From the IMG/VR virus record IMGVR_UViG_3300026966_000012: a DNA stretch of 64,000 nucleotides. One strand, given 5' to 3'. This stretch comes from a virus. Its lineage: Duplodnaviria; Heunggongvirae; Uroviricota; Caudoviricetes. The notes under the pieces were generated by a model, which saw nothing but the letters and a program-made list of their open reading frames with translations, was not told where the DNA came from and searched no databases. Within the stretch, counting starts at the first letter, position 1; each line of letters opens with the position of its first letter. This document shows, piece after piece, positions 14,336-50,236 of this stretch. The position numbers and the translations under genes were made by a program.

Positions 14336-14342
14336 CGCCAAA

Positions 14343-14355
14343 CATATCTATATAC
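14343..14355 (+). promoter_or_regulatory. TATA box of a cassette promoter
   Basis: catatctatatac. Confidence 0.45.
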
Positions 14356-14378
14356 TTGTACCCTGAGAAGCATAAGAT

Positions 14379-14621: not shown

Positions 14622-14761
14622 GCCGCGTCGTCCGGGTCCCGCGTCTCGGCGACCGCCGTAACCCGTGCACCGTCATGCACGAGACGCACACGGGTCGCCT
14701 GAAAGTGCGCGACCGCTACGGCTACGCCCTGCGGGTCGACCCCGAGGAGGTCGTCGAGTAG
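14618..14761 (+). CDS. small hypothetical protein (GTG start)
   Basis: GTGA overlap; same frame as track ORF 14453..14761. Confidence 0.3.
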   Translation: MSRVVRVPRLGDRRNPCTVMHETHTGRLKVRDRYGYALRVDPEEVVE

Positions 14762-14771
14762 CGCAACCGCC

Positions 14772-15293
14772 ATGTATCGCGACTACGAGATTCGATTCGA
14801 GCCGATGGACTGGCCGACGCCCGTGTACGTCAGCGAGGACGAACCCAGCCCCGACGCGGTCGACCCGATCGAGAACTGGAACGTGAAGCCGGTCGGTGGG
14901 CTGTGGACAGCACCGCTGCTCGATGACAGCGACGGCCTCGCGACCGCCTGGACAGAGTGGATGAACGCCGAGCAGTACGTCCCGTATGGCGAGAACGCTC
15001 GCCTGTACGCCCTCGAACCGCGTGACGACGTCGACCTGTTCGTGGTCGACAGCCTCGATGCCGCGAAGGAGCTGTACGCGTTCGGCGACAGCGGACCGGC
15101 CGAGGTGCTCTCGAGCGCGGTCGACTACGAGGCGATCGTCGACGAGTACGACGGCGTCCGCCTGACGCATGAGGGCCAGATCGACACGCGCCTGTCGTGG
15201 GAGGCGAATCTGAACGGCTGGGATTGTGCGTCGACGGTGTGGTTCGACTGGTGCTTCGAGTCGGTCGAAGACCTGGGCCCGCTGGAGTTGTAG
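14772..15293 (+). CDS. hypothetical protein
   Basis: 173 aa, high GC3. Confidence 0.55.
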   Translation: MYRDYEIRFEPMDWPTPVYVSEDEPSPDAVDPIENWNVKPVGGLWTAPLLDDSDGLATAWTEWMNAEQYVPYGENARLYALEPRDDVDLFVVDSLDAAKELYAFGDSGPAEVLSSAVDYEAIVDEYDGVRLTHEGQIDTRLSWEANLNGWDCASTVWFDWCFESVEDLGPLEL

Positions 15294-15295
15294 CC

Positions 15296-15330
15296 GGGCC
15301 CGCTTTTGCGCCGTGCCCCGCCGTCAGCCG
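15296..15330 (+). terminator. conserved cassette terminator motif
   Basis: CCCGCTTTTGCGCCGTGCCCCGCCG. Confidence 0.45.
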
Positions 15331-15421
15331 ACAGCAAACGGGCCTGTTCTGTGGACCGTTCCGTCCTGTTTTCGCGGATTCGGGCGTCTCAGGCCGTCTA
15401 CGCGCGGAATGGTGTGGGAAA

Positions 15422-15430
15422 ACTATATAC
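15422..15430 (+). promoter_or_regulatory. TATA box of a cassette promoter
   Basis: actatatac. Confidence 0.4.
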
Positions 15431-15453
15431 CTGTAAGTGTCCAAGTATAAGAT

Positions 15454-15651
15454 ATGGGACAAAAAATCCCAACCCGACGGAGAGCGACGCCGGCGAACCT
15501 CGAGCAGAGACTCGCCGAGATCGAGCGAGAGCTGCGGGCGATGAGCCGGGGCGACGTCGACGCAGGGACGTGCCGCTGGCTGCTGGAGGAGAAAGCCGAG
15601 CTGCGAGCCGAGCGCAACCGCCTGTTCGCGGCGACGGGGCGGTGGTCGTGA
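15454..15651 (+). CDS. hypothetical coiled-coil protein, N-terminus MGQKIPTRRR
   Basis: ATG in hairpin TGGGACAAAAAATCCCA. Confidence 0.5.
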   Translation: MGQKIPTRRRATPANLEQRLAEIERELRAMSRGDVDAGTCRWLLEEKAELRAERNRLFAATGRWS

Positions 15652-15800
15652 TGAGCGACGACGAGTTCCCGGGACCCGCGCCGATGGGCGCACGACCGCC
15701 GGACGTCGTCGAGCGGGCGAAGGAGATCGCGTACGGCGAGGTGTCGGCGACGTCCGAAGAAGTCGCCTGGGCGCTGGAGGTGATCGCGGATGAGCGATGA
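15651..15800 (+). CDS. small hypothetical protein
   Basis: Internal ATG of track ORF 15306..15800; TGATG overlap. Confidence 0.4.
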   Translation: MSDDEFPGPAPMGARPPDVVERAKEIAYGEVSATSEEVAWALEVIADER

Positions 15801-16029
15801 GTTGCTGGGCGTGATCGAGGTCGAGAGCAGCAAGCCGTACGTGAAAGACGTGTACGACGTGGTCCGCGTCGATGGGCCCGATCTCGAGACGGTCTGCGTC
15901 GAAGCTGGCGAGCGCCACGAGCTGGGCGACCGCGTCCGCTGGCCGAACGAGCTCGTGACGGTGATGTCCCGGGCGACGCTGTACGACCCCGACGGCAACG
16001 AGATCGAGATGGCTGAGCTCGGCCGATAG
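15790..16029 (+). CDS. hypothetical protein
   Basis: 79 aa. Confidence 0.45.
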   Translation: MSDELLGVIEVESSKPYVKDVYDVVRVDGPDLETVCVEAGERHELGDRVRWPNELVTVMSRATLYDPDGNEIEMAELGR

Positions 16030-16082
16030 GGCCCCGGCTCCCGCCTCGGCCTACGCGCGCCAAGGCGCCGCAACCCGGCAAC

Positions 16083-16120
16083 GCGTGTGGGTACGTACCG
16101 ACGTGTGTGTATGTACAGAC
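16083..16120. repeat. GTACGTACA alternating purine/pyrimidine element (degenerate copy)
   Basis: gcgtgtgggtacgtaccgacgtgtgtgtatgtacagacg. Confidence 0.4.
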
Positions 16121-16305
16121 GCCGACCCCGAACCCCGATTCGCCCGACCGGCTGCACTACCACCAGCAGCGACCGGCTCAGCCGACAAAAAACGGGCCCA
16201 CATCACGACGGTTTTCACGCGCGGAATCCAAAACGAACGCCTCAGGGCTCCTACGCGCGGAATGTGACCAGAAACTATATACCTGTCAAAGTACAAGTAT
16301 GTAAT

Positions 16306-16542
16306 ATGGAATCAAAAATTCCATCCCGACGGAGCAGCGAAGCGTGCGAGAACGGTGTCGAGAACGCGATCAGTGAGCGAGAACGTCGCCTCGTGCGGGA
16401 CGTGACGGCCATCGTCAACGAGCTCGAGACGATCTCGCAGCACGACGAGATGCTGAGCGGGCGAATGACGAAGCAGTGGGCCGAGGGGCTGTGCGACGCA
16501 GTCGACGAGTTCGCCGAGTCGGACCCGCACGCGCAGGAGTAG
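16306..16542 (+). CDS. hypothetical protein, N-terminus MESKIPSRRS
   Basis: ATG in hairpin TGGAATCAAAAATTCCA. Confidence 0.5.
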   Translation: MESKIPSRRSSEACENGVENAISERERRLVRDVTAIVNELETISQHDEMLSGRMTKQWAEGLCDAVDEFAESDPHAQE

Positions 16543-24120: not shown

Positions 24121-24134
24121 CCACTACCACCAGA

Positions 24135-24172
24135 AGCGTGTGTACGTACATACGCGCCCATACGTACATACA
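24135..24172. repeat. GTACGTACA alternating purine/pyrimidine palindrome
   Basis: gcgtgtgtacgtacatacgcgcccatacgtacataca; adjacent to dispersed motif CCACTACCACCAGAAGCG. Confidence 0.5.
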
Positions 24173-24192
24173 CCCCCTGAAGCCCTCCCCAA

Positions 24193-25836
24193 ATGCCCAC
24201 AGCGAACCTCCTGAACACGAAGGCCGGCAAGTTCGGCCAGGTCCCCGGCGCCGCCTCTCGCGCTCGCATGTCCGAGCTCGTCGAGGGGAAAGGTGCGATC
24301 GACCTTCGCGACTACCAGTCCCACTTCGAGCAAGCGTTCGACGATCCCGTCGAAGCACAGATCAAGTTCGAGAACTGGTGTTGCCGAGTCAAAGACACGC
24401 TGATCTCGTCGTCGGGTATCGATCTCCGACCATACCAGAAGGAGTTCTCCGATCGCATCATCAAGTCCGTCGTTCGGAATGATGGACAGACGTTCTTCGC
24501 CGAATGGGCTCGTCAGAGTGGAAAAACGGAGACACTGGCCTCGACGGCCTACGCGGTGTCTGTCCTGTTTGCCCCGATCCGCATCGGTATTTTCGGTCCG
24601 AAGCAGCGACAGGCGCAGATCATGTGGGACCGCGTGAAAGAGCGGTACAACCAGGAGGTTCTCGACGGACTTGGGCTCGAGATCGAGAAGTATGGGGGAA
24701 ACACGTTCAAGCTCTCCTCTGGGTCCGTGGTTCAGGCGATCACGGCTGGCTCGGGGAACATTGAGGGGGAGACATTCGACCTGATCCTCATCGACGAGAC
24801 GCAGAAGATCAGCCGCCGGATGCTCCTTGCGGAGATCTGGCCGATGGGGGCGGAGACCAACGCGACGAAGTGTTGTATCGGAACGCCGCACTTCCAGGAC
24901 TGCTGGTTCCGAGAGCAGCTGGAGCGGCTGAAGGGCACGCCGTTCTGTATGATATACGACTGGCGGACGCCGGCGAAATACTCGAAGAACTACCGGAAAT
25001 CGATCGCCCGCCAGCTGGAGCAGATGAGTCCGGAGTCCGAGGAGTTCCGCACACAGTACGAGCTCGAGTGGATTCTGGAGTCGGGGATGTTCATCACGAT
25101 AGAGGACTGGCGCCGGATGAACCCGCCGCCGCTCATGACCCCGGTCGTGACGAAAGAGGAGCTGTACGACAGCGAGATCAACTCGAAGTGGCAAGTGAGA
25201 GCGGGCGTCGACCTCGCGAAAGAACACGACTCGACTGTTCTGACGGTCACTGGCAAATACTTCGGGTCGTGGGAGCCATACTGGGATGGCTTCTCGGAGG
25301 AGACGATCGTACTCCTCGACGTGGTCGAATTGGAGGGCCTCGAGTACCCGGACCAGATAGACATCATTCAGGAGGAACTGGACCGATGGCACGCCGACGT
25401 GCTTGGAGTGGACTCGACTGGTGTCGGCGACCCGGTGACAGATATCCTGAAGCGAGAGCTGAACCAGCACGTCGAGGGCATCAAGTTCACGTCATCGAGC
25501 AAGCACGACCTGTACAAACACGTCGAGCGGAAGGTGAAGGTCGAGGAGGAATGGGACTACTGCAACTTCGTGATCCCAAAGAAGGTCCGCTCCTACCCAC
25601 ACCTGGAGGTGTCGATGCGGAAGATGGAAGAACAGTGGTTGGAGCTGACGAAAGAGTACAAAGGGTCACGCATGAGTGTTGAGGGACCGGATAGCGGGCA
25701 CGACGACTACCCGGACAGTGCAGCCCTCTCCATGTGGGTGCAGGACGCCGACTACAACATCGACGAGAAGCACATGACCTCGCCAACCCCAGTCCTGGGG
25801 ACGATGAACGGCATCGGGGCGAAGATCGGGTACTGA
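24193..25836 (+). CDS. terminase large subunit
   Basis: Walker A ARQSGKTE, Walker B LILIDETQ, C-terminal nuclease region GVDSTGVGD; 547 aa. Confidence 0.9.
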   Translation: MPTANLLNTKAGKFGQVPGAASRARMSELVEGKGAIDLRDYQSHFEQAFDDPVEAQIKFENWCCRVKDTLISSSGIDLRPYQKEFSDRIIKSVVRNDGQTFFAEWARQSGKTETLASTAYAVSVLFAPIRIGIFGPKQRQAQIMWDRVKERYNQEVLDGLGLEIEKYGGNTFKLSSGSVVQAITAGSGNIEGETFDLILIDETQKISRRMLLAEIWPMGAETNATKCCIGTPHFQDCWFREQLERLKGTPFCMIYDWRTPAKYSKNYRKSIARQLEQMSPESEEFRTQYELEWILESGMFITIEDWRRMNPPPLMTPVVTKEELYDSEINSKWQVRAGVDLAKEHDSTVLTVTGKYFGSWEPYWDGFSEETIVLLDVVELEGLEYPDQIDIIQEELDRWHADVLGVDSTGVGDPVTDILKRELNQHVEGIKFTSSSKHDLYKHVERKVKVEEEWDYCNFVIPKKVRSYPHLEVSMRKMEEQWLELTKEYKGSRMSVEGPDSGHDDYPDSAALSMWVQDADYNIDEKHMTSPTPVLGTMNGIGAKIGY

Positions 25837-26073: not shown

Positions 26074-27807
26074 ATGAGTGACGCAGAAACACCGACAGAC
26101 GACGCGAACGATCCAGTCGAGATCACCGCCGAGGTCGAGTCGGCTGACGGCACAACGGCAACGGTCACCCGATCGGCATCGCTGGCCGAAGTTGTCTCTG
26201 AGCCCCGCGAGATCCTCGAGAAAGATCAGTTCGAGACTGACTTCGACCTGTATGAACGGCTCATAGAGATCGACCCCGAACTGGCTGGGACGATCCGCGC
26301 ACAGGCACAGCTGGCCTCTGGCTTCGAACTAATCCACCCCACTACAGAAGGAGACAGTGAGGAGCCGACGGACGCAGATGTGACCGCACATAACGACTGC
26401 ATGGAGCTGGTCCAGGCCCTGGACCTCGACCTGTCCCAGCCGTCGATGTTCAAGCACATGATCGGGATGGGTAACGACATCTCGAAGATCATCTATTCGG
26501 ATGGCGTTGGCGTGACTGGTCTCCAGTCGCTCCCCCTCCGGTCGGTGACGATCATCGACGAGGACACACAGCCGGGTGTGCAGAACGCAATTGCTGAAGC
26601 GAAAAAGCAGGCGCAGGACGACGAGGAGATCGAGCTCACGACGTACACCGATAACCTCCCGGACGCAGTCGTACAGGATGCCGACTTCTACGTCCTGAAC
26701 GAGGGCAAGAAGGACATGAAGATGATCGAGTCGTGGAAGATCCTTCACCTCGCTGTCGAGCGCCGTGGCAACTGGTTCACCGACAAGTTCGACCGCAAGA
26801 CCTACGGGGTGTGGGGTGCCCCGCGAATCGAGCCGACAAAGTTCGCCCTCCAGGCCAAGCACAACACGCTCACGAACAAGGTGTCGATGGATGACTCACT
26901 GATCGCCCGTGAGATCTACCACATCGACGTCGCCACGCTATTCGGCCACATCAATAACGACGACAAACGAGAGAAGAAAGCGAAAAAGTACGCCTCCGAC
27001 CTCAAGGAGACACTCGAGGGACTGGGTCCCGACGAGAAGCCGATCCTCCCGGACGAAGTGAGCGTCGACGTTCAGGGACCCGAGGGGAAGGCCAAAGAGC
27101 ACGGTGACTTCCTCGACCTGATGAACGATTCCATCATGCACGCACTGACGTTCAACGTCTCTGGCGTCGGGCGTGACGCTGGTGGACCGTACATTGGGAA
27201 CCGGCCGGCGAAGGATACGTCGCTGAACAACGTCCGGCACCTTCGCGAGACGATGGGTCGACAACTCCGGAAGCTGTTCAAGATCCACCTGCTCCTCAAG
27301 CACCCCGAGTGGCGCGAGGATATGGCCGACCCCGAGGACGTCTCGACATGGAAGCTCCGCGATGACATCACGCTCCCCAAAGTCGAGTGGGCGCAGATGG
27401 AAGACGGAGACCTCGAGCGCATCGTCAACGCGGCGACGAAAGCGTACGGGTCGAAGCTGATCACGCGTAACGAGGCCCGAGAGATGTTCGGCCTCGACCC
27501 GATCCCCGACGACGAGATCGACCGCCTGTTCCAGGACCAGTTCATGAACATGGAGATTCAGGACGAGTTCAACCGACGCCAGCAAGAGCGTCAACAGGAG
27601 GATGCCCCCGAACGGGATCAGGATACTGAGGAAGAAGACGAGGAGGATGCAAGTGTTGCTCAGACCGCCTCCACCTCACTACCACCAGAAGCGCAAGAAA
27701 CAGTCGCGAATGAATCGTTCCGATCGGCGCTGGCCACAGGGTTCGATGACGCTGTGTCGAACATGAACGTCGCGCTGAGTCAGGGGGATGCTGATGACAC
27801 TGAGTGA
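26074..27807 (+). CDS. portal protein
   Basis: 577 aa directly after the terminase; acidic C-terminus; size and position typical of a portal. Confidence 0.75.
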   Translation: MSDAETPTDDANDPVEITAEVESADGTTATVTRSASLAEVVSEPREILEKDQFETDFDLYERLIEIDPELAGTIRAQAQLASGFELIHPTTEGDSEEPTDADVTAHNDCMELVQALDLDLSQPSMFKHMIGMGNDISKIIYSDGVGVTGLQSLPLRSVTIIDEDTQPGVQNAIAEAKKQAQDDEEIELTTYTDNLPDAVVQDADFYVLNEGKKDMKMIESWKILHLAVERRGNWFTDKFDRKTYGVWGAPRIEPTKFALQAKHNTLTNKVSMDDSLIAREIYHIDVATLFGHINNDDKREKKAKKYASDLKETLEGLGPDEKPILPDEVSVDVQGPEGKAKEHGDFLDLMNDSIMHALTFNVSGVGRDAGGPYIGNRPAKDTSLNNVRHLRETMGRQLRKLFKIHLLLKHPEWREDMADPEDVSTWKLRDDITLPKVEWAQMEDGDLERIVNAATKAYGSKLITRNEAREMFGLDPIPDDEIDRLFQDQFMNMEIQDEFNRRQQERQQEDAPERDQDTEEEDEEDASVAQTASTSLPPEAQETVANESFRSALATGFDDAVSNMNVALSQGDADDTE

Positions 27808-30698: not shown

Positions 30699-31025
30699 GT
30701 GTACGTCGAAGACCTCTCATCCGGCTACCTGCTGACGAAGCTCAGCGTCGAACTGTGGGACGAGGACTACGGGGCGATGGACTACGCAGACCACGGAATC
30801 CTGTCTGACGTCGTCTACGACGGTGGCCGCCATCCGTTGTTGATCAAAGGACAGCGACATCGGTCGATGTACATCCCCGTCTACCCCGAATCGTCGGTCC
30901 CACGAGATACGGTATTCGTCCCTGGTGAGGGTCGAGCACCGCAGCCGGAACAGGAACGCATACTTGTCGCAAAACGTGCACATGCCCTCAAGCTACTCAG
31001 GCTGATGAGCCACGACCCCCTCTGA
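30699..31025 (+). CDS. hypothetical protein
   Basis: 108 aa. Confidence 0.4.
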   Translation: MYVEDLSSGYLLTKLSVELWDEDYGAMDYADHGILSDVVYDGGRHPLLIKGQRHRSMYIPVYPESSVPRDTVFVPGEGRAPQPEQERILVAKRAHALKLLRLMSHDPL

Positions 31026-31030
31026 ACCCC

Positions 31031-31066
31031 CGCACGTACATATACACACGCACATATGTACGTGCA
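31031..31066. repeat. perfect 34-36 nt alternating purine/pyrimidine palindrome (Z-DNA-prone)
   Basis: cgcacgtacatatacacacgcacatatgtacgtgca; identical copy at 51791. Confidence 0.6.
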
Positions 31067-31562
31067 AAAGGGTAGAGAGTCTGAAAGGGATTAGGTAGGA
31101 AAGTTTTCATTCCGACGTGTGCCGACCCTGTTTCCAGACCGTAACCCCCCACCTCTCGGGCCTGTAAACCACTCTCCACGCAATCCGGCCGAAAAGGCCC
31201 TCTAAACCGCACTCTCAGAGCTTCTATCCTTTGAATATGCCATGTCTGAGCGACATTCTGGGTATCCAGACTGGTTTCCCCTCACCAACCACTCATGTCC
31301 GATACCGCAGGATAACCACCCTGACACTCGTACCACCAGGAACGAAGGCCCGTATTCCTTCAAGATATACAGAGACAAGCAGAGTGGAATCGATAGACTG
31401 CACTGACCTCCACGCATATACGAAAAACGACAGAACAGAAATCTTTAATATCACATCCCACATATTTCTATTCACCCACAGCTACCCAGTGGGACGTGCT
31501 CCCCGAGTGCGTAGAACGGAGATATACATGAAGGAATGGCGACAGAAGTGGAGGAATAGTCT

Positions 31563-32444
31563 ATGAACGAACGTGCGCAGTCAGCGGCTGGGCCGATTGC
31601 GGTCGTGGTCCTGGTCGGTGCCGTTATCCTTGTCGGAGTTGGTCTCGCGTCGATGCAGACAGTCGACGAGGGACACGTCAAAGTGGTCACCTACAAAGGC
31701 AACGCCGAAGGGACGTTCTACCCCGGCAACTGGTATTTCATCAACCCGATCACGCAGGGGACCGTGTCGGTCGACGTTCGGCCACAGGTGATGCAGATGG
31801 TTGCTGCACAGGGAGAAGGCGAGCGTTCCGAGTTCGACGACTCGATCAAAGTAGTGACTAACGACAACATGCGAGTGCCAGTTGACGTTGCGATCACCTA
31901 CCAGGTCGACGACCCGGTCACCTTCTATGAGGAGTGGAAGACTCACGACCAGGCCCGACAGCGGGCGATCCGACCTGGGTCCCGGGCCGCCATCTACACC
32001 GTTGGTGGTGGGATGTCCGGTACCGAGATCACCAACGACGAGGCACGAGAGCGGATGCGCCTCGCTGTTGCTGAAGAACTGGAAGACCGGTTCGACGGGA
32101 CGGGGCTCGCTCTGATCGCTGTCGACATCCGTGGCGTGTACCCACCCGACTCGTTCCTGGATGCGGCCGAGAACGCCCAGGCCGAGCGTCAGGAGATCAT
32201 CGCTGAACAGCACCGACAGGAAGTTGCCAGAGAGCACGCAGAAACGCTCCGTATCGAAGCCGAAGGTGAGCGAGACGCCCGCCTGATCCGCGCCGAAGCG
32301 TACGAGAACGACGCTGTCCTCGAAGCGATGTACATCGACGAGCTCAGCGAGTCCAACGTGATCTACGTACCGGTCGGTAACGATGGCGTGCCACTGTTCA
32401 TGGACGTCAGCGACGACGAGAACAGTACAAGCGGGAGTCCGTAA
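31563..32444 (+). CDS. SPFH/band-7 (prohibitin/stomatin-like) membrane protein
   Basis: N-terminal TM segment; SPFH domain with a coiled-coil EA-rich tail. Confidence 0.85.
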   Translation: MNERAQSAAGPIAVVVLVGAVILVGVGLASMQTVDEGHVKVVTYKGNAEGTFYPGNWYFINPITQGTVSVDVRPQVMQMVAAQGEGERSEFDDSIKVVTNDNMRVPVDVAITYQVDDPVTFYEEWKTHDQARQRAIRPGSRAAIYTVGGGMSGTEITNDEARERMRLAVAEELEDRFDGTGLALIAVDIRGVYPPDSFLDAAENAQAERQEIIAEQHRQEVAREHAETLRIEAEGERDARLIRAEAYENDAVLEAMYIDELSESNVIYVPVGNDGVPLFMDVSDDENSTSGSP

Positions 32445-32447
32445 GTC

Positions 32448-32627
32448 ATGGCTCTCGCGGTCGTGGGCCTCCTGCTCGTGTGGGTGTCTCTGTGCATCGT
32501 TACGTTCGTCGCCTATCGGATGTACATGCGCCACCGCGACCGGAAGCACGAGGAGCGTATCAAACAGCTGGAGACGCAGCAAACGCTGTTCGAGAACGAC
32601 GAGCTGTTCGACGACGAGGACCTGTAA
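32448..32627 (+). CDS. small membrane protein partner of the SPFH protein (59 aa)
   Basis: MALAVVGLLLVWVSLCIVTFVAY, then a charged tail. Confidence 0.4.
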   Translation: MALAVVGLLLVWVSLCIVTFVAYRMYMRHRDRKHEERIKQLETQQTLFENDELFDDEDL

Positions 32628-32628
32628 G

Positions 32629-32724
32629 ATGATCCCGCCCGAATCGTACTGGATGGCGGCGGGAGCGGTACTGGGCGTCGCGGGGACGCTCCTGGGACTG
32701 TACCTCGACGGGTACATCCCGTAG
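32629..32724 (+). CDS. tiny membrane peptide (31 aa)
   Basis: MIPPESYWMAAGAVLGVAGTLLGLYLDGYIP. Confidence 0.3.
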   Translation: MIPPESYWMAAGAVLGVAGTLLGLYLDGYIP

Positions 32725-32731
32725 CGGCGAC

Positions 32732-32776
32732 TGTCGGCCCGGCTGGGTCATTCGGGGTTCGAATCCCCGACCGACA
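32732..32776 (+). other. tRNA-like minihelix (acceptor-like stem TGTCGG/CCGACA plus T-arm CGGGG-TTCGAAT-CCCCG); candidate attP core or tRNA-like element
   Basis: Canonical T-loop GGTTCGAATCC; no D arm or anticodon arm. Confidence 0.4.
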
Positions 32777-32788
32777 CTGGGGTGACCA

Positions 32789-33601
32789 ATGCAAATCAAA
32801 CAAATCGCAGGCACGCCGCACCCCGAGCGACTGGTGAGTCTGTGTGCACGAAACGACTATCGAGCTGATGGCGTCATCGACCACTCATTCGCCGAGATCA
32901 TGGCGGGTGTGAAAGTGGACGACGACGTCGTCGACGATCTCCGTGAGGAGTGGTTTGACGACGACGATGTTGCACGGGACGACCCGTGGGATGCGATGCC
33001 AGCCGAGTTCAGAACAGAAGCAGAACAACGATCGCTCCTCAAGCATACCATGAACGAGGGCCACTGGGGCGTGTTCGAGCACCCACAGGCGACGCTCGCG
33101 CTCGAGGGTATCACCCGGACATCGATGGCGCAGATCACGCGCCACCGACACTTCACGTTCGACATCATGTCCCTCCGATACGTCACACTCGACTTCGACT
33201 CGGTCGAGGAGATGAAGGAGCGATTCGCCGAGCCTGATGAGATCACGGCCGAGGAGGTCGTGAGTCGGAACGGCGTCGAGACCATCGACATGGACCCCGA
33301 CGAGCGCGAGGAGATCTGGTGGGAGACGATCGCCCACACCGCCCACACCTACAACACACTCGTGGACGCTGGCGTCCCTCAGGAAGAAGCGCGCAAAGTC
33401 CTCGGTATGGGAACGAAGGTCAACATCATGATGTCTGGGAACGCCCGGGCCTGGATGCACCTTCTGAACATCAGAGGGAAAGCGAACGTCCAGGGAGAGG
33501 CCCGAAACATCGCTGACGGCGTGATGGGCGAGATGAAGGAGTGGATGCCGTACACGTTCGAGCGGTACGACGACATGCTCCCACTGAGACTGAACCCATG
33601 A
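32789..33601 (+). CDS. thyX: FAD-dependent thymidylate synthase ThyX
   Basis: ThyX signature RHRHFTFDIMSLRY (RHRxxSxxxxSxRY-like). Confidence 0.85.
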   Translation: MQIKQIAGTPHPERLVSLCARNDYRADGVIDHSFAEIMAGVKVDDDVVDDLREEWFDDDDVARDDPWDAMPAEFRTEAEQRSLLKHTMNEGHWGVFEHPQATLALEGITRTSMAQITRHRHFTFDIMSLRYVTLDFDSVEEMKERFAEPDEITAEEVVSRNGVETIDMDPDEREEIWWETIAHTAHTYNTLVDAGVPQEEARKVLGMGTKVNIMMSGNARAWMHLLNIRGKANVQGEARNIADGVMGEMKEWMPYTFERYDDMLPLRLNP

Positions 33602-38695: not shown

Positions 38696-39696
38696 TGGAC
38701 ATCGACGAGATCTACGAGCAAGAGATTGACGCTCGCGAAGACATCGTCGAGGCGTGTCCCATCGACATCTACGTCGCGTCGATCAACCCCTACTGGGCAT
38801 ACCCGAACAAGCTGATGTCGTACTACGAGACGCGGCCCGGCGTTCGTGATTCGTGTCGCCAGGTGATCGTCGACTCTGGGAAGACGCGTATCGGTAACAT
38901 GAGCGAGATCATCCAGGCGGCTATCGACATGGATGCTGACCAGGTGATACCGCCGGACCCGACGCCATACACAGACGGGTACGACGAGCTCACGCCCCAC
39001 GGCCACGCCGAGGAACAGGCACAGCACTACTGGGAGTGGTATCGAGAAGACGTCGACGGGACGATTTTGCTCCCGATCCACCCGCCGTATCAGCGGTTTA
39101 TTGAGGAGCTCGGTCGGTGGGACCCTGGGCACATACTCGGGTACGAGGACGACCCGTACTTCGACTACCCGAGTACGCCTGAAGCTGAAGAACGCTACCT
39201 CGCCGGTGTCGAGCACTACTCGCTCACGTACGACCTGATCGGTGCCGCCGATGGCGTTGCGGTCGGGAGCCTCCTGGGCCTCGACGTCTTCGAGCAGATC
39301 ACGGCACTCAAGCAAGTACGAGAGGCGGTCGGGCCGTACAAACACGTCCACGCACTTTCGCCGACCCCTCGGCCCGAGATGCTGCTGTTTCTCCGGCGAA
39401 ACCCTGGGATTATCGACTCACTCGACCTGTCGACGCCCGAGACGGCGCCGGCTGGGAACAAGCTTCCCGACCTGCGGTTCTATCCGCAGATGAAGTACCT
39501 GTTCCCACCAGCCCATGCGAACATCAGCCCCGTCAGAGGTGCAGCGTCGACGATGATCGCGCTCATGCTCAACTTCTGGCTGAGTGAGTGGGTCAAAGAG
39601 GAGGAGTTGATGGAGATGCTCGAGGAGCACTACGACTGGGTCGAGCGTGAGCAGACCGCCCAGACCGGCCTGGAGGCGTTCGGACATGGCGACTAA
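38695..39696 (+). CDS. TGT/DpdA-like protein, degenerate paralog
   Basis: VIVDSGKTRIG (degenerate DSGG box); C-terminal half aligns with the 39686 ORF. Confidence 0.4.
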   Translation: MDIDEIYEQEIDAREDIVEACPIDIYVASINPYWAYPNKLMSYYETRPGVRDSCRQVIVDSGKTRIGNMSEIIQAAIDMDADQVIPPDPTPYTDGYDELTPHGHAEEQAQHYWEWYREDVDGTILLPIHPPYQRFIEELGRWDPGHILGYEDDPYFDYPSTPEAEERYLAGVEHYSLTYDLIGAADGVAVGSLLGLDVFEQITALKQVREAVGPYKHVHALSPTPRPEMLLFLRRNPGIIDSLDLSTPETAPAGNKLPDLRFYPQMKYLFPPAHANISPVRGAASTMIALMLNFWLSEWVKEEELMEMLEEHYDWVEREQTAQTGLEAFGHGD

Positions 39697-40915
39697 CCTC
39701 GTCGACGACGGTCATCGTCCCACGCCGGAACGAGACACGTTCCGTCACGTCTGGGCGAGAGAACGCGGGCCCTGGGTCGTCCTTGAGCGCATCAAAGGGA
39801 CGCGAATGGAGAGCGGTGAGATCGTCGCTGAGTGCGATGACTACCTGGAGGCACTCGCGTTCGCTGTCGATTCCGAGACAGAGGACTGGGTTATCACGGA
39901 GATCGCTGGTCAGTGCTGCAACTGTGGACAGCTGGTTGTCGTCGACGAGCTCGCTGAGGAGCCGACGTGTCCACACTGCAACGACGTCCTCTGGCTGGCC
40001 GCCGAGCAGCGACGGTTGGCCGAGTTTGCCCGCGACCGGCTGGCGTTCGATATGTACTGGGGTGTTGCCTCTGGCGCACAGCGGAAAGCGATCCGTGTCC
40101 TTGCGCACGGATTCGACCATCGCGAGCCAGACAATCTCAACATCATGCTGAACTACGCGACGCAGAATAATCAGCTCCTGACCGAGAAGGGACTGGAGCT
40201 CATGACGAACGTCGAGACCCTGTTTATCGACTCTGGCGGCTACTCGTTCTTCGAGCGAGAGGGTGGATACGACACTTCAGACTGCGAGTACCTGCGATAC
40301 ATCGCCCGCGTGCAACCTGATTACTTCGCACTCAGGGATTACCCGTGTGAGCCTGACATCCTGGATGCACGCGACACGACCGTCCAATACCACCAGCAAC
40401 GGACGACAGAGAAAGCCCAGATCCTGCTCGATATGCTTGATGACTTTGCGATCACGGCCACACCAGTTGCGGTCGTGCAGGGGTGGTCGCCCGATGATTA
40501 TCGGTCACACCTCCGGCAACTCTATCGCGCTGGTGTCCTCGACGAGGTGGAGCACATCGGCATTGGGACCCTCTGTGGTCGCGAAGACGTTGCCCAGATC
40601 GCGACCATCGTCGAGGCCGTCAGAAAGAGTGTTGGACCGGACTTCAAAATACACGGGTTCGGTGTCAAGCGAGAGGCGTTAGAACGCCCGGACGTCGTCG
40701 AGTCACTCGACTCGGCCGACACACTCGCGTACAGCATGAAGCCGATGTACGATTCAATCGCTACTGGTGGTATGGTCGCGAACACGTGGAAACACGAAGC
40801 GCGAGGGTTCCTGGATTACTATGCCACGATCCACGAGTCGCTCAGACGAATCGAGCACGGGGAAGCCGACGAAGATATAGTCGCCCAACAGACGCTTGCA
40901 TCATATGGTGACTGA
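39686..40915 (+). CDS. tRNA-guanine transglycosylase (TGT)/DpdA-like protein with an N-terminal zinc ribbon
   Basis: FIDSGGYSFFE matches the TGT substrate-binding box DSGG[FY]Q; CCNCGQ...CPHC. Confidence 0.5.
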   Translation: MATNLVDDGHRPTPERDTFRHVWARERGPWVVLERIKGTRMESGEIVAECDDYLEALAFAVDSETEDWVITEIAGQCCNCGQLVVVDELAEEPTCPHCNDVLWLAAEQRRLAEFARDRLAFDMYWGVASGAQRKAIRVLAHGFDHREPDNLNIMLNYATQNNQLLTEKGLELMTNVETLFIDSGGYSFFEREGGYDTSDCEYLRYIARVQPDYFALRDYPCEPDILDARDTTVQYHQQRTTEKAQILLDMLDDFAITATPVAVVQGWSPDDYRSHLRQLYRAGVLDEVEHIGIGTLCGREDVAQIATIVEAVRKSVGPDFKIHGFGVKREALERPDVVESLDSADTLAYSMKPMYDSIATGGMVANTWKHEARGFLDYYATIHESLRRIEHGEADEDIVAQQTLASYGD

Positions 40916-47245: not shown

Positions 47246-50236
47246 ATGAGCCAACCAGACAGTAGTGTGCGCCTCCCGAAGAAGCAAACAACGGGAGCCA
47301 CGCTCGAAGACCGACTGACAGAGAACGCGTACCAGCGGATTATTCCACAGCGATACCTCAAGAAGGACGAGAACGGTGTGCCAACGGAGGAGCCAGAAGA
47401 CCTGTTCGAACGCGTGGCGAAGAACATCGCCATCGCTGAGGCGATCCACACGGACGAGACGGTGTGGATAGAACCCAGGCACATCAAGCCCGACCACCCG
47501 CGACGCGAGGACCTGATCCGCGAGGTATTCGACGACTACGGCATCGCTGATGCCGAGGGCATGGAGCCGACCACGGAACTGGACGAGGAGAACGCCAAGT
47601 GGGTCTCCTACGATACAATCATCGACGACCTCGACACTACCACCAGAAGCGTCGTCGAGGACACGAAAGAGCGGTTCCAGGATCGTATGGAGCGTCTGGA
47701 TTTCATCCCGAACAGCCCCACCCTCGCCAACGCCGGCGACGAGCTCCAGCAACTCAGCGCATGTTTCGTGATGTCCCCGGAAGACGACATCGCTGACATC
47801 CACGACACGCTTCGTGATGCTGCGCTGACGTTCCAGTCGGGAGGCGGCGTTGGGTATGCGTTCAGCTACCTTCGACCCTACGGTGACCGTGTCGGCTCGA
47901 CTGGTGGTATCGCATCGGGCCCGCTCACGTTCATGCGGACCTACGACCAGATGTGCCGGACGATCGCCCAGGGCGGGATGCGCCGCGGCGCGCAGATGGG
48001 TGTGATGCGAGTCACGCACCCTGACGTGATCTTCTTCATCCACTCGAAGAACAAGGACGTCTCACTCGCGCAGGCCCTCCGTCTGAACGACCCGAAGGAC
48101 TACGTAAACTCGTCGTACGGGGAAGCCCTCGAAGAAGCCCGCGACACACTCGAGCGGTTCACTGACGACGAAGGACGTCTCGAACCACACCTCCGAAACG
48201 CTGTCGAGGCACAGCTCGCCAACTTCAACATCAGCGTGACGGTCACCGACGACTTCATGCTGGCCGTGGAGAACGACGAGCTCCACACGTTCATCAACCC
48301 GCGCACTGGACAGCCCCACATCGCGACCGAGGAGACCAAAGAGATGTACGAGTGGTTCGACCTGGGTCACCACGTCACTGTGGGAGAGCCACTACGTGTC
48401 CCGGCTCGCGAGATCTGGGATGACATCATCGAAGGTGCGCACGAGAACGGCGAACCAGGGGTGCTGTTCATCGACAGTGCGAACGCGGACCACTCGTTCC
48501 CGACGGAATCGACGCCGACATGGCGCGACGACGATCAGTTCGAGATGTCGACGACCAACCCCTGTGGCGAGCAATGGCTCATGGAGAACGAGGCGTGCAA
48601 TCTGGGCCACATAAACCTCTCGACGCTTGTGGCCGAGGATGCACCCGACTGGCGAACGTACCTCGACACATACGGCGCCCCGAGTGGGTACGAACCCGAC
48701 CGGTCTGAGATGGCATACGTCGTTGGTGATTTCCTCGAGAAAGCCATCGACTGGGAGGAGCTCGACGCCCGCGTCGACGACGGCGTTCGGTTCCTCGACA
48801 ACGTCGTCACCATGTCGTCATTCCCCACCCCGGAGATCGAACAGACAGTACGGGATAACAGGAAGATAGGACTCGGGATCATGGGACTGGCCCAGATGTT
48901 CGTGCAGATCGGGACCAAGTACGGGAGCGATGTCTCGAACGAAGTGACCAGACAGGTGATGCGCCACATCAACCAGCGGTCGAAAGACGCATCGCTACGT
49001 CTGGCTGACCAGCGTGGGTCGTTCGAAAACTGGGAGCACTCGAAGTACGCCGACCCGACCGCCCACACAGACTGGTTCGAGCGCCAGACTGGAGAGGCGG
49101 CCGACGTCTGGGAAGATGGCTACCCGATACGGAACCACAACACGACCACAGTGGCGCCGACTGGGACAACTGGAATGATCGGAAACACGAGCGGTGGATG
49201 TGAACCGATCTTCGGTGTTGCACACTTCAAAAACGTCTCTCAGGACATCCAGGGAGACGAGCAGCTCGTTGAGTTCGACGACTATTTCCTCCGTGTCCTG
49301 GAGGCTAACGACGTCGACGTCGAAGCGGCGAAGACAGAGTGTCTCGAGCAGATGCAAGCCAACGAGTTCGAGGGTGTGAAGGGGCTCGAAACGGTCCCGG
49401 ACGAGATCGGCGAGCTATTCGTCACCACGGACATGCTCAGTGGCCTCGAGCACGCGTCTGTCCAGTGTGCCGCCCAGGAGGGCGTGGACAGTGCGATCAG
49501 CAAGACCGTCAACTTCCCCAACAGCGCGACCAAACAGGACGTGCAGGAAGTGTACGCGTACCTGTGGAGCCACGGAGCCAAGGGAGGAACGATCTACCGC
49601 GATGGGTCCCGTTCGAAGCAAGTGATCTCAACCAGAGCTGATCACGGAGACGTGGCCGGCGGAGAGCCCATGTCGCGAGAGGACGCTGAGGCTCGAATCG
49701 ACGAGCTCGCAGAGGAACACGGTATCCCACTGGCCGCCGCTGAGCAACCCGCTACTGGTGGTATCGAGCTGGCTGAGCCGGGCAAGGTTCTGTCTGCTCG
49801 ACGCGAGCGCATCAAGACGGGATACGGGAACATGTACGTCAACATCGGGTTCGACGACGAGGGTCGCCCCATCGAGACGATCTGCAACATCGGGAAGTCG
49901 GGCGGGTTCACCAACTCGATGGTCGAGGCCATCGGCAAACTGTCGTCGCTGGCACTCCAGGCTGGCGTTCCAGCCGAGGAAGTAGTCGAGAAACTCGACG
50001 GCATCTCCTCGCCGGACATCGGGTTCGACGATGGTGAGCAGATAGCCTCACTCCCGGACGGTATCGCCACCGCACTTCGTCGTGCGGTCGAGGCCGAGAG
50101 TGAAGCGACACTCGAGATCAAAGCCCACAACGATCACAACCCGAACGAGGAGTCCTGTCCGGACTGTGGCGGCGACGTCGTTTACGACGGTGGGTGCCCG
50201 AAGTGCGCCCTCGAGTGTGGTTGGTCGAAGTGCTGA
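47246..50236 (+). CDS. nrdJ: class II (adenosylcobalamin-dependent) ribonucleotide reductase
   Basis: 996 aa; active-site TTNPCGEQ; C-terminal zinc ribbon CPDCGG...CPKCALECGWSKC. Confidence 0.85.
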   Translation: MSQPDSSVRLPKKQTTGATLEDRLTENAYQRIIPQRYLKKDENGVPTEEPEDLFERVAKNIAIAEAIHTDETVWIEPRHIKPDHPRREDLIREVFDDYGIADAEGMEPTTELDEENAKWVSYDTIIDDLDTTTRSVVEDTKERFQDRMERLDFIPNSPTLANAGDELQQLSACFVMSPEDDIADIHDTLRDAALTFQSGGGVGYAFSYLRPYGDRVGSTGGIASGPLTFMRTYDQMCRTIAQGGMRRGAQMGVMRVTHPDVIFFIHSKNKDVSLAQALRLNDPKDYVNSSYGEALEEARDTLERFTDDEGRLEPHLRNAVEAQLANFNISVTVTDDFMLAVENDELHTFINPRTGQPHIATEETKEMYEWFDLGHHVTVGEPLRVPAREIWDDIIEGAHENGEPGVLFIDSANADHSFPTESTPTWRDDDQFEMSTTNPCGEQWLMENEACNLGHINLSTLVAEDAPDWRTYLDTYGAPSGYEPDRSEMAYVVGDFLEKAIDWEELDARVDDGVRFLDNVVTMSSFPTPEIEQTVRDNRKIGLGIMGLAQMFVQIGTKYGSDVSNEVTRQVMRHINQRSKDASLRLADQRGSFENWEHSKYADPTAHTDWFERQTGEAADVWEDGYPIRNHNTTTVAPTGTTGMIGNTSGGCEPIFGVAHFKNVSQDIQGDEQLVEFDDYFLRVLEANDVDVEAAKTECLEQMQANEFEGVKGLETVPDEIGELFVTTDMLSGLEHASVQCAAQEGVDSAISKTVNFPNSATKQDVQEVYAYLWSHGAKGGTIYRDGSRSKQVISTRADHGDVAGGEPMSREDAEARIDELAEEHGIPLAAAEQPATGGIELAEPGKVLSARRERIKTGYGNMYVNIGFDDEGRPIETICNIGKSGGFTNSMVEAIGKLSSLALQAGVPAEEVVEKLDGISSPDIGFDDGEQIASLPDGIATALRRAVEAESEATLEIKAHNDHNPNEESCPDCGGDVVYDGGCPKCALECGWSKC

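What the first reader, a model, noticed from the sequence alone, without database searches (positions are those of the whole stretch)
31563..32724. Virus-encoded SPFH/prohibitin-like protein with two tiny membrane partners
ORF 31563..32444 is a clear SPFH/band-7 protein. In cellular genomes these pair with NfeD-type small membrane proteins. Here two tiny TM peptides follow it directly (59 aa and 31 aa). SPFH proteins in viruses are uncommon. The pair could organise membrane microdomains for virus assembly, exit or superinfection exclusion.
Basis: partly seen in the sequence, partly recalled or inferred. Interest (0 to 1): 0.55.

Follow-up and report, generated by a model that had tools for sequence, protein, structure and literature searches.

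The report
Halovirus SPFH protein with small partner
A salt-loving archaeal virus carries a membrane-scaffold (SPFH/prohibitin-like) gene followed by a tiny membrane protein; the same pair occurs in many related viruses and in host chromosomes, so it is a borrowed host module and not a rarity.

Summary
ORF 31563-32444 is a genuine SPFH/Band-7 protein (Pfam E 1.3e-26; AF2 model matches HflK/C, stomatin, erlin and prohibitin cage subunits). Two tightly packed small hydrophobic ORFs follow it.

- SPFH genes are routine in haloarchaeal tailed viruses: 45 halovirus records from three named families carry one, and it falls in PHROG 200.
- The 59-aa ORF is a real, conserved partner. Its profile hits only the position just downstream of the SPFH gene, in 26 of 32 independently fetched loci. 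Four of four partner homologues found by themselves sit behind a Band_7 gene. dN/dS is 0.04-0.3.
- The partner is not NfeD-like. It has one TM segment plus a charged helix, is 44-79 aa long, and shows no informative domain fusions.
- The same pair sits in cellular haloarchaeal contexts, so the virus carries a captured host operon.
- The 31-aa ORF looks coding by codon-position GC, but it has no homologue in any relative.

The likely mechanism is inferred, not shown: an outward-facing SPFH cage tied to a single-pass partner, acting as an auxiliary membrane-scaffold module during early or middle infection. The function has not been tested. This is a new member of a known kind, of modest interest.

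The parts
31027..31069 (+). Strong hairpin directly after the stop codon of the upstream DUF5802 gene (30699-31025). It is one member of a repeat family dispersed through the window. It is the likely end of the upstream transcription unit, which would make the SPFH gene the first gene of the next unit after a roughly 490-nt spacer of about 50% GC.
   Evidence: Repeat family D7 has copies at 3938, 9831, 16082, 24133, 31027 and 51787. The RNA fold gives -27.2 kcal/mol with z = -6.5. The spacer has flat codon-position GC. Its role as a terminator or unit boundary is inferred.
31563..32444 (+). SPFH/Band-7 (prohibitin/HflK-like) membrane protein of 293 aa. It has an N-terminal TM helix, an SPFH domain, a long coiled-coil helix, and a disordered acidic tail carrying an N-S-T sequon.
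   Evidence: Pfam Band_7 E 1.3e-26. PHROG 200 E 7.8e-35. NCBIfam HflK reaches 50.9 bits, below its cutoff of 159.4. AF2 model. Foldseek against PDB. Homologues in 45 halovirus records.
32448..32627 (+). Conserved SPFH-associated small membrane protein (59 aa). It has one N-terminal TM segment, an aromatic/Arg boundary (AYRMY), and a charged helix with a (R/K)HE(E/K) motif and an acidic end. It probably sits N-out/C-in.
   Evidence: Homologues lie directly behind the SPFH gene in HF1 (HfxHF1_240), HGTV-1 gp230, HHTV-2 gp79, VOLN27B and many metagenomic and genomic loci. The profile hits only that position. The reverse look-ups agree. dN/dS is 0.04-0.3. There are 75 clusters at 50% identity, nearly all 45-79 aa. 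K+R counts are 9 on the N flank and 91 on the C flank across 25 members.
32629..32724 (+). Lineage-specific 31-aa ORF with a Gly/Ala-rich hydrophobic core (glycine-zipper-like). Its composition looks coding, but no homologue was found.
   Evidence: GC by codon position is 0.66/0.47/0.88, with Fisher p = 0.001 for position 3 against position 2. No off-frame or non-coding window reached this pattern. tblastn against all loci finds nothing below E 0.1 apart from itself. It was called in one of three identical metagenome contigs.

Best explanation
This is a two-gene membrane module captured from haloarchaeal hosts. It consists of a cage-forming SPFH protein of the prohibitin/HflK-like type and a dedicated 44-79-aa single-pass partner encoded immediately downstream and probably co-translated.

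Shown:
- The SPFH fold and overall architecture.
- Conservation and synteny of the partner, purifying selection on it, and its co-divergence with the SPFH gene.
- Presence of the same pair in cellular genomes.

Inferred:
- The SPFH subunits assemble, like HflK/C, prohibitin and erlin, into a ring or dome on the outer face of the cytoplasmic membrane (N-in, domain out).
- The partner spans the membrane with its charged helix in the cytoplasm. It would serve either as the cage's membrane-embedded client or as a link from the cage to the cytoplasm.
- The virus expresses the pair with its replication and nucleotide-metabolism genes, as an auxiliary function that reorganises or stabilises the host membrane while virions are made.
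- It therefore does not act as a structural, lysis or lysogeny function.

The 31-aa ORF B is probably a translated, lineage-specific add-on and not a core part of the module.
For: Fold and architecture:
- establish the SPFH domain and the full-length cage-subunit architecture.

Partner family:
- Direct inspection finds homologues just downstream of the SPFH gene in three named virus families and in the window's own clade.
- An HMM built from 7 partners hits only the position downstream of the SPFH gene on the same strand. This holds in 26 of 32 non-redundant loci fetched through the SPFH protein, and there is a single hit in the whole 64-kb window.
- Reverse test: 4 of 4 partner homologues found from the partner profile alone lie 0-1 ORF behind an SPFH gene. 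Three are Pfam Band_7 calls. In L056 the upstream product is cut by the contig end and was identified by the SPFH HMM.
- dN/dS is well below 1 in four subgroups.
- SPFH and partner distances correlate (Mantel r = 0.62, 0 of 2000 permutations reach it).
- An exhaustive profile search finds 75 clusters. Nearly all are standalone proteins of 45-79 aa.

Host origin:
- The pair is flanked by a TerB-domain gene and a radical-SAM gene in the Halorubellus litoreus chromosome.
- It is flanked by 3-hydroxyacyl-CoA dehydrogenase and aldolase genes, or by response-regulator and kinase genes, in MAG contigs.
- HHTV-2-type viral SPFH proteins are 64-67% identical to these cellular ones.

Orientation:
- In the HF1 group, the SPFH N flank carries 2 K and the C flank 0 K/R with 4 D/E.
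- The C-terminal tails carry 37 N-x-S/T sequons against 17.5 expected from composition.
- Tat/lipobox lipoproteins are inserted in the module in the HHTV-2-like loci and in L008.
- Partner K+R counts are 9 (N flank) against 91 (C flank).
- Alternative partners seen with related SPFH genes, in L047 (annotated DUF8108) and L012, are 2-TM proteins with a C-terminal Cys-rich segment that looks like a zinc ribbon, which would be cytoplasmic.

Timing and dispensability:
- In HF2 the 16-49 kb region that holds the prohibitin gene is transcribed early to middle (PMC8707807).
- Two HF1-group proviruses lack the gene (PMC7230728).
- In the window the gene sits directly upstream of ThyX.
Against: - No experiment or co-folding shows that the two proteins touch. 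Adjacent genes co-diverge simply because they are co-inherited.
- Orientation is not settled. In the window's own clade the SPFH flanks carry 1-2 K/R on the N side and 2-4 on the C side. For the partner, net-charge rules give opposite answers in different subgroups.
- The sequon excess is based on related, S/T/N-rich tails.
- Six SPFH loci lack the partner: L012, L024, L027, L028, L041 and L047.
- Expression timing is extrapolated from HF2 region-level data. In the window the module lies between packaging genes and nucleotide-metabolism genes.
- A 'membrane scaffold' role is generic, and no client has been identified.
- Archaea lack HflK/C-type proteins according to PMC2636767. Whether they also lack the FtsH protease that HflK/C controls was not checked here.
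Confidence: 0.6

Rival explanations
1. SPFH-NfeD-type pair: the small ORFs are miniaturised NfeD equivalents that sit inside the cage on the same side as the SPFH domain and regulate it.
For: The gene adjacency and co-divergence resemble SPFH-NfeD operons (PMC2636767). QmcA, the SPFH subunit of the solved QmcA-YbbJ (NfeD) complex 8z5g, is among the structural matches. If the partner were N-in/C-out, its charged helix would share a compartment with an outward-facing SPFH domain. Net-charge counts in the HF1 group allow this reading.
Against: Neither ORF shows an NfeD Pfam hit, even at E up to 10. The partner has one TM segment, not three, has no room for the beta/OB domain at 44-79 aa, and lies downstream, not upstream. 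NfeD is not found with HflK/C- or prohibitin-type SPFH. The K+R bias favours a cytoplasmic tail.
Confidence: 0.12
2. Lysis or viroporin module: ORF A (and perhaps ORF B) is a holin- or viroporin-like pore former, and the SPFH cage holds it in check until release.
For: ORF A has the textbook holin and viroporin architecture: small, one TM segment, highly charged C-terminal tail. There are weak architecture-level hits to Vpu (E 4e-4 for one family member, 0.095 for the window protein) and to Chordopox A13L. To my knowledge no lysis genes have been identified in haloarchaeal tailed viruses, and a keyword search of a large comparative study (PMC8651126) found no mention of 'holin'. ORF B has a glycine-zipper-like TM segment.
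Against: The same pair is kept under purifying selection in cellular, non-viral contexts. The module sits with early-middle or replication genes, not late genes, in HF2-type genomes. There is no adjacent lytic enzyme. The hits lie far below family thresholds.
Confidence: 0.1
3. Superinfection exclusion: the outward-facing cage, plus the lipoprotein in some lineages, blocks genome entry or receptor access for later-arriving viruses.
For: The module shows early-gene-like placement and small membrane proteins. Secreted lipoproteins recur in it, which recalls T4 Imm/Sp and the T5 Llp and Cor lipoproteins (from my own knowledge). The module is carried by the lytic isolates.
Against: Cellular copies exist in non-viral contexts. 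Two related proviruses lack the gene, so lysogens do not depend on it. PADLOC shows no defence-family match. No receptor-related evidence was found.
Confidence: 0.12
4. ORF B is not a gene, and the 'second partner' is an accident of sequence, for example a remnant of a signal peptide or of a decayed tRNA region.
For: No relative carries a homologue, including the closest relatives L008, L009 and L010. It was called in only one of three identical contigs. Its hydrophobicity is borderline. A tRNA T-arm-like 11-mer lies 32 nt downstream, and HF1-type viruses have tRNA genes at the equivalent place.
Against: Its codon-position GC pattern is typical of genuine genes and was never reached by off-frame or non-coding windows. 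It has an SD-like GAGGA 8 nt upstream and a 1-nt spacing to ORF A.
Confidence: 0.35

Closest known systems
HF1/HF2 'prohibitin family protein' (HfxHF1_235 / HrrHF2_235) followed by the 44-aa hypothetical protein HfxHF1_240. Equivalents are HGTV-1 gp229/gp230 and HHTV-2 gp81/gp79.
   Same: The gene pair is the same: an SPFH protein with an N-terminal TM segment, then a single-pass protein with a charged tail on the same strand, 1-90 nt downstream. The window's SPFH protein is 30-34% identical to these. Partner profile E-values range from 1e-25 to 1e-17.
   Different: The window's pair belongs to a separate, so far uncultured clade. Its nearest relatives are metagenomic at 40-49% identity. Its partner tail is longer than in the HF1 group (59 against 44 aa). 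It carries the extra ORF B. No tRNA genes flank it. HHTV-2-type loci insert a Tat lipoprotein between the two genes.
Cellular haloarchaeal SPFH operons: the Halorubellus litoreus chromosome locus (L025) and MAG loci L026 and L029.
   Same: They carry the same SPFH clade and the same small-partner family, 7-11 nt downstream. They are the probable source of the viral genes.
   Different: Their neighbours are metabolic and signalling genes. Their tails are S/T/N-rich. They share only about 30-35% identity with the window protein.
E. coli HflK/C (SPFH3) cage enclosing FtsH (PDB 9cz2, 7vhq, 7wi3).
   Same: It is the best structural match (E about 1e-15) and the best NCBIfam match. It shares the N-terminal TM segment, the SPFH domain, the long coiled-coil helix and the C-terminal cap segment. 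The extracytoplasmic orientation is probably the same.
   Different: The score is far below the HflK equivalog cutoff (50.9 against 159.4 bits). The window has a single SPFH gene, not a K/C pair. SPFH3 is reported absent from archaea, and no FtsH-type client is evident.
Prokaryotic and eukaryotic prohibitins (SPFH4; PDB 8rrh, 9o9z) and erlins.
   Same: They show a similar size and architecture, are single-TM type II proteins, and have no NfeD partner. GenBank annotators label the haloviral homologues 'prohibitin family'.
   Different: Sequence identity in the structural alignments is only 17-20%. No small single-pass partner is described for them in the sources I read.
SPFH-NfeD pairs (QmcA-YbbJ, PDB 8z5g; Pyrococcus horikoshii stomatin with its NfeD protease).
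   Same: An SPFH gene forms an operon with a small membrane protein, and the two co-evolve.
   Different: The partner lacks every defining NfeD feature. The gene order is reversed. The likely orientation of the SPFH domain is opposite to that of stomatin and QmcA.

Membership tests
SPFH / Band 7 superfamily (Pfam PF01145) | Band_7 domain scoring above the Pfam gathering threshold | tested here: met
   94.2 bits against a cutoff of 23.6, E 1.3e-26, residues 33-223.
SPFH / Band 7 superfamily (Pfam PF01145) | Cage-subunit architecture: membrane anchor, SPFH alpha/beta domain, long coiled-coil helix, C-terminal segment | tested here: met
   AF2 model with pLDDT 81. Full-length Foldseek matches to HflK/C, stomatin, erlin, prohibitin and QmcA at E 1e-15 to 1e-12.
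SPFH / Band 7 superfamily (Pfam PF01145) | Assembly into a large homo-oligomeric ring or dome on a membrane | not testable with these tools
   No multimer prediction or experiment is available. Assembly is inferred from homology only.
HflK/HflC (SPFH3) FtsH modulators | Score above the NCBIfam equivalog cutoff (TIGR01933 / TIGR01932) | tested here: not met
   HflK 50.9 bits against 159.4. HflC 17 bits against 134.4.
HflK/HflC (SPFH3) FtsH modulators | Two paralogous SPFH genes (K and C) in one operon | tested here: not met
   The SPFH HMM finds a single gene in the 64-kb window and in every related locus.
NfeD (SPFH-associated partner) | About 140-150 aa, three N-terminal hydrophobic stretches, and a C-terminal soluble all-beta (OB-like) domain, as defined in PMC2636767 | tested here: not met
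   ORF A has 59 aa, one TM segment and a helical charged tail. ORF B has 31 aa. No NfeD hit appears in Pfam at E up to 10.
NfeD (SPFH-associated partner) | Accompanies stomatin-type, flotillin-type or YqfA-type SPFH (SPFH1/2/5) | tested here: inconclusive
   The best family-level affinities are HflK-like and prohibitin-like, and those subfamilies have no NfeD. No formal SPFH subfamily phylogeny was made.
Haloarchaeal/haloviral SPFH-associated single-pass protein (unnamed; HF1 gp240-like; PHROG 27041 for the HF1 subgroup) | 44-79 aa, with an N-terminal TM segment, an aromatic/basic boundary and a charged helix | tested here: met
   Alignments A2 and A5. The window protein scores 4e-14 in the exhaustive profile search. 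The match to PHROG 27041 is only E 7e-4.
Haloarchaeal/haloviral SPFH-associated single-pass protein (unnamed; HF1 gp240-like; PHROG 27041 for the HF1 subgroup) | Encoded on the same strand within 0-1 ORF downstream of an SPFH gene | tested here: met
   The window gene starts 3 nt after the SPFH stop codon. The arrangement holds in 26 of 32 forward loci and 4 of 4 reverse look-ups.
Phage holins | Small protein with at least one TM segment and a highly charged C-terminal tail | tested here: met
   Sequence features of ORF A. This is resemblance only.
Phage holins | Located in a lysis cassette with a lytic enzyme, expressed late, and lethal on induction | tested here: not met
   The neighbours are the SPFH gene and ThyX. 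The same pair occurs in cellular operons. Expression and lethality cannot be tested here.
Known anti-phage defence systems (PADLOC) | Match to a defence-system protein model | tested here: not met
   None of the three proteins hits any model at E up to 0.1.

The most novel reading that the evidence does not exclude
The SPFH protein and its single-pass partner form an undescribed two-component membrane system of haloarchaea that tailed viruses of several families have captured. An outward-facing cage under the S-layer would be coupled, through the partner's TM segment, to a cytoplasmic charged helix. Viruses would use it to control envelope integrity, release timing or entry of competing viruses. 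That would give a first handle on how archaeal tailed viruses manage the host envelope.
Probability: 0.25. Interest if true: 0.6.

Novelty: new member of a known kind. Interest (0 to 1): 0.3.

Why it matters
In the papers I searched, SPFH genes in haloarchaeal tailed viruses are annotated or listed but never functionally examined. The same holds for their small downstream neighbour, which every record annotates as 'hypothetical protein'.

This analysis shows that the neighbour is a conserved, selected, co-diverging partner shared with host chromosomes. That turns an isolated annotation into a defined two-gene module that can be deleted in tractable systems (HF1 or HF2 on Halorubrum, Hardygib1 on Haloferax gibbonsii).

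It also corrects the expectation that prokaryotic SPFH genes should pair with NfeD. How tailed viruses handle the archaeal envelope (entry, exclusion, release) is poorly understood, so a conserved virus-borne membrane module is a reasonable, though not exceptional, lead.

Tried and rejected
Searches that found nothing:
- Megablast of 29-36 kb against phage records gave no match.
- A single-protein scan of IMG/VR found nothing. The alignment-based scan was needed.
- ARAGORN found no tRNA in the window.
- Rfam at E up to 1 on 30.9-33.0 kb gave only sub-threshold miRNA-like hits on the hairpin and no tRNA.
- PADLOC gave no hits.
- Pfam and NCBIfam gave only sub-threshold, architecture-level hits for the partner: COX14, Vpu, A13L and DUF7365.

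Leads considered and downgraded:
- The T-arm-like motif at 32756-32766 does not align to a full tRNA, and its fold is no better than shuffles (z = -0.74). The exact 11-mer occurs at least once in 8 of 100 shuffles. I treat it as a possible remnant only.
- DUF8108 was precomputed for the Halogeometricum neighbour gene, but the local Pfam copy did not reproduce it. That protein is a different partner type, with two TM segments plus a Cys-rich C-terminal segment.
- P0117 looked like a natural SPFH-partner fusion, which would fix the two soluble parts on opposite sides of the membrane. Its locus L057 has a frameshift in the SPFH N-terminus, so it may be a pseudogene or an assembly error. I did not rely on it.

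Not attempted:
- Co-folding of SPFH with the partner, because no multimer tool is available. A read-through fusion construct would not have been interpretable.
Full report
**1. What is at the coordinates**

The + strand carries three tightly packed ORFs:
- 31563-32444, 293 aa.
- 32448-32627, 59 aa (ORF A). It starts 3 nt after the preceding stop codon.
- 32629-32724, 31 aa (ORF B). It starts 1 nt after the preceding stop codon.

SD-like motifs lie 7-10 nt upstream of each start (read).

The 293-aa protein is an unambiguous SPFH/Band-7 protein:
- Pfam PF01145 gives E 1.3e-26, at 94 bits against a cutoff of 23.6.
- PHROG 200 gives E 7.8e-35.
- The best NCBIfam model is HflK, at 50.9 bits. This is far below its cutoff of 159.4.
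- An AlphaFold2 model built on 21 homologues has pLDDT 81. It shows a TM helix (5-30), the SPFH domain (31-192), a 50-residue helix (196-247), a second helix (250-263) and a disordered acidic tail.
- Foldseek against the PDB returns full-length matches to cage-forming SPFH subunits. HflK/C comes first (9cz2, 7vhq; E about 1e-15). Stomatin, erlin, prohibitin and QmcA follow.

ORF A has a strong N-terminal hydrophobic segment (KD 2.79). ORF B has a borderline, Gly/Ala-rich one (KD 1.68).

**2. Setting**

The window is viral:
- It encodes a large terminase (24193-25836), a portal (26074-27807), a tail-sheath-like protein (59561-60916), ThyX (32789-33601), a DpdA-like transglycosylase (39686-40915) and a class II RNR (47246-50236).
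- The proteome is acidic and almost every gene lies on one strand.
- No isolate is close. Megablast finds nothing, and the terminase is at most 31% identical to anything in the phage collection.

The upstream DUF5802 gene ends at 31025. It is followed at once by a strong hairpin (z = -6.5) that belongs to a dispersed repeat family. A spacer of about 490 nt with about 50% GC and no coding signal comes next. The SPFH gene therefore probably opens a transcription unit that runs on into ThyX. This is inferred.

**3. Are SPFH genes unusual in viruses?**

They are not unusual in this group.
- tblastn finds homologues at 30-34% identity in 45 records of haloarchaeal tailed viruses. These cover Hafunaviridae (HF1, HF2, the HRTV, HCTV, HJTV and HSTV series, Serpecor1, Hardycor2, VOLN27B, Hardygib1), HGTV-1 (Halomagnusviridae) and HHTV-2 (Saparoviridae). 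Alteromonas and Arthrobacter phages also have homologues.
- Most of these genes are already annotated as 'prohibitin family' or 'SPFH superfamily'. The rest are labelled 'hypothetical protein', sometimes with an SPFH/Band 7 note, or 'lipoprotein' in RefSeq.
- Band-7 ORFs in T4-like phages were tabulated in 2006 (PMC1524935).
- None of the papers I found assigns a function.

**4. ORF A is a conserved partner**

By inspection:
- HF1 has a 44-aa ORF (HfxHF1_240) 1 nt after its prohibitin gene.
- HGTV-1 has gp230 (54 aa) 86 nt downstream.
- HHTV-2 has gp79 (61 aa) after one intervening lipoprotein gene.
- VOLN27B has an unannotated equivalent.
- The window's closest metagenomic relatives (40-49% identity) have one too.

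All share a short N-terminus that usually contains one Lys, a TM segment of about 22 residues, an aromatic/basic boundary, and a charged helix that often contains (R/K)HE(K/E).

Forward test:
- I built an HMM from seven partners and searched the six-frame translation of every fetched locus and of the whole window.
- Every hit lies just downstream of the SPFH gene on the same strand.
- This holds in 26 of 32 non-redundant loci that were fetched through the SPFH protein and have enough downstream sequence.
- The window has exactly one hit, which is ORF A.

Reverse test:
- A profile search with the partner alone returned 25 small proteins.
- The four independent ones I looked up all lie 0-1 ORF behind an SPFH gene. 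Three are Pfam Band_7 calls. In L056 the upstream product is cut by the contig end and was confirmed with the SPFH HMM.

Further support:
- Pairwise dN/dS is 0.04-0.3 in unsaturated comparisons within four subgroups.
- SPFH and partner distances correlate (Mantel r = 0.62; 0 of 2000 permutations reach it).
- An exhaustive profile search of 1.84 billion representatives finds 75 clusters at E up to 1e-3. All but three are standalone proteins of 45-79 aa, so there are no informative fusions.
- One apparent SPFH-partner fusion (P0117) sits in a locus with a frameshift, so I discounted it.

**5. The partner is not NfeD, and the pair is not virus-specific**

NfeD proteins are 140-150 aa. They have three hydrophobic stretches and an all-beta domain. 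They accompany SPFH1, SPFH2 and SPFH5. No NfeD is known for HflK/C-type or prohibitin-type SPFH (PMC2636767). ORF A fails each defining feature and gives no NfeD hit.

The same SPFH-partner pair occurs in cellular settings:
- In the Halorubellus litoreus chromosome it lies next to TerB-domain and radical-SAM genes.
- In MAG contigs it lies next to 3-hydroxyacyl-CoA dehydrogenase and a DeoC-type aldolase, or next to response regulators and kinases.
- HHTV-2-type viral SPFH proteins are 64-67% identical to these cellular proteins.

Other arrangements also exist:
- A related Halogeometricum SPFH gene, in a housekeeping neighbourhood, is followed by a 113-aa protein with two TM segments and a Cys-rich C-terminal segment, annotated as DUF8108.
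- Viral contig L012 has a similar 2-TM protein upstream, with a weak zinc-ribbon hit, and no small partner.

The parsimonious reading is that viruses captured a host operon, possibly more than once.

**6. ORF B**

- No relative has a counterpart, including the closest ones.
- All other copies are 100% identical DNA, so selection cannot be measured.
- Its codon-position GC pattern (GC3-GC2 = 0.41) matches genuine genes in the window (mean 0.37). None of 218 off-frame windows and none of 102 non-coding windows reached it.
- I rate it as probably translated but lineage-specific, and not a core partner.

**7. Orientation and mechanism (inferred)**

Several weak lines of evidence place the SPFH domain outside the cell, as in HflK/C, prohibitin and erlin:
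- The HF1-group proteins have 2 Lys before the TM segment. After it they have no K/R and 4 D/E.
- The disordered C-terminal tails carry 37 N-x-S/T sequons against 17.5 expected from composition. The window has one such NST sequon.
- Tat/lipobox lipoproteins are inserted in the module in HHTV-2-like loci and in L008.

For the partner, K+R counts are 9 on the N flank against 91 on the C flank over 25 members. This favours a cytoplasmic tail. The alternative partners with Cys-rich, zinc-ribbon-like C-terminal segments would also face the cytoplasm.

The evidence is not decisive. The window's own clade has ambiguous SPFH flanks, and net-charge rules disagree between partner subgroups.

On timing and dispensability:
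- The HF2 region that contains the prohibitin gene is transcribed early to middle (PMC8707807).
- Two HF1-group proviruses lack the gene (PMC7230728).

My best account is an accessory, host-derived membrane-scaffold module used during replication. The single-pass protein would be the cage's membrane-embedded client or its link to the cytoplasm.

The rivals and their confidences are:
- A holin/viroporin role for the partner: 0.10.
- Superinfection exclusion: 0.12.
- A miniature NfeD-like lumenal partner: 0.12.

None of these is excluded. The first two are weakened by the cellular copies.

**8. Verdict**

The feature is real and the SPFH call is correct, but the framing needs correcting. This is a new, divergent member of a gene pair already present, though undescribed as a pair, in published halovirus genomes and in host chromosomes.

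The modest new content is the recognition of the small partner family and its exclusive linkage to this SPFH clade. Interest is 0.3.

Noticed in passing
window 32756-32766 (context 32725-32788): The intergenic stretch between ORF B and ThyX contains GGTTCGAATCC inside GGGGTTCGAATCCCC, a tRNA T-arm look-alike flanked by TGTCGG...CCGACA. ARAGORN and Rfam find no tRNA, the fold is not better than shuffles, and the 11-mer occurs at least once in 8 of 100 shuffles. HF1-type viruses have real tRNA genes flanking their SPFH module, and HF2 uses a tRNA-like gene as attP, so this could be a decayed tRNA or att remnant.
   Followed up: partly
window 31027-31069; also 3938-3980, 9831-9873, 16082-16124, 24133-24175, 51787-51829: There is a dispersed family of GTACGTACATA-type palindromic hairpins. 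The copies at 31027 and 51787 look nearly identical by eye, and the copy at 31027 has a 12-bp stem with z = -6.5. Several copies lie at ends of ORFs or just upstream of genes; the 24133 copy lies upstream of the terminase gene. They are candidate terminators or regulatory sites.
   Followed up: partly
window about 1900-16330 (e.g. 8393-8438, 8743-8788, 10697-10791, 12378-12423, 14315-14409, 15420-15482, 16272-16334): An intergenic repeat family carries a TATA-like box (TATATAC/TTAATA) followed by ...AAGATATGGGAC(A)AAAATCCCA, which includes an ATG and a small hairpin. It gives many ORFs the same 'MG(Q/T/P)K..P' N-terminus. It resembles the promoter-bearing intergenic repeats of HF2. A second repeat (CCGCTTTTGCGCCGTGCCCCGCCG, 7-8 copies) and a third (GCGCGGCAACCCGGTG, 9 copies) occupy the same region.
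   Followed up: no
window 31070-31562: A spacer of about 490 nt lies upstream of the SPFH gene. It has about 50% GC against about 60% elsewhere, flat codon-position GC and no convincing ORF. It could be a promoter or regulatory region or a non-coding RNA. Rfam has no match.
   Followed up: partly
window 4795-4823, 11139-11167, 16143-16171, 27665-27693, 47623-47651, 56355-56383, 62257-62285: The motif CACTACCACCAGCAGCG (ACTACCACCAG core) recurs seven times across the whole window, in coding and non-coding places. It is unexplained.
   Followed up: no
whole window / protein P0001: The identical SPFH protein is recorded on 5-7 metagenome contigs, the longest 320,643 bp. This is more than twice the 143,855-bp HGTV-1 record, the largest halovirus genome among the SPFH hits. 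The window may come from a very large virus, a concatemer, or an element integrated in a replicon. The long contig itself was not retrievable.
   Followed up: no
window 39686-40915: A DpdA-like or queuine tRNA-ribosyltransferase-like gene (Pfam DpdA E 6.6e-20; PHROG 1279) suggests 7-deazaguanine modification of the viral DNA.
   Followed up: no
L003 3297-3584, L019 3909-4205, L052 2743-2997, L053 2751-2999, L056 685-993, L008 5130-5624: Small Tat-signal/lipobox lipoproteins (RR...LAGC) are inserted between the SPFH gene and the partner in HHTV-2-like loci, and after the partner in L008. The HHTV-2-like ones share a C-terminal YW.YVVESL.YQN motif. They form a third, optional component of the module.
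   Followed up: partly
L047 9004-9345 and L012 2465-2932: Two related SPFH genes have a different neighbour. One is cellular (Halogeometricum limi) and one is on a 50% GC viral contig. Each has a 113-155-aa protein with two TM segments and a C-terminal CxxC...CxxC zinc-ribbon-like segment, annotated DUF8108 in the precomputed data. It lies downstream in one case and upstream in the other.
   Followed up: partly
L057 224-1081: One metagenomic gene reads as an SPFH protein fused in frame to the partner's TM segment and charged tail. The same locus has a frameshift in the SPFH N-terminal region, so it may be a pseudogene or an assembly error and not a true fusion.
   Followed up: partly
C-terminal 30 residues of SPFH proteins in 34 loci (window 32355-32441): N-x-S/T sequons are about twice as frequent as composition predicts (37 against 17.5), and many tails are S/T/N-rich. 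This hints that the cap of the SPFH assembly is extracellular and glycosylated.
   Followed up: partly
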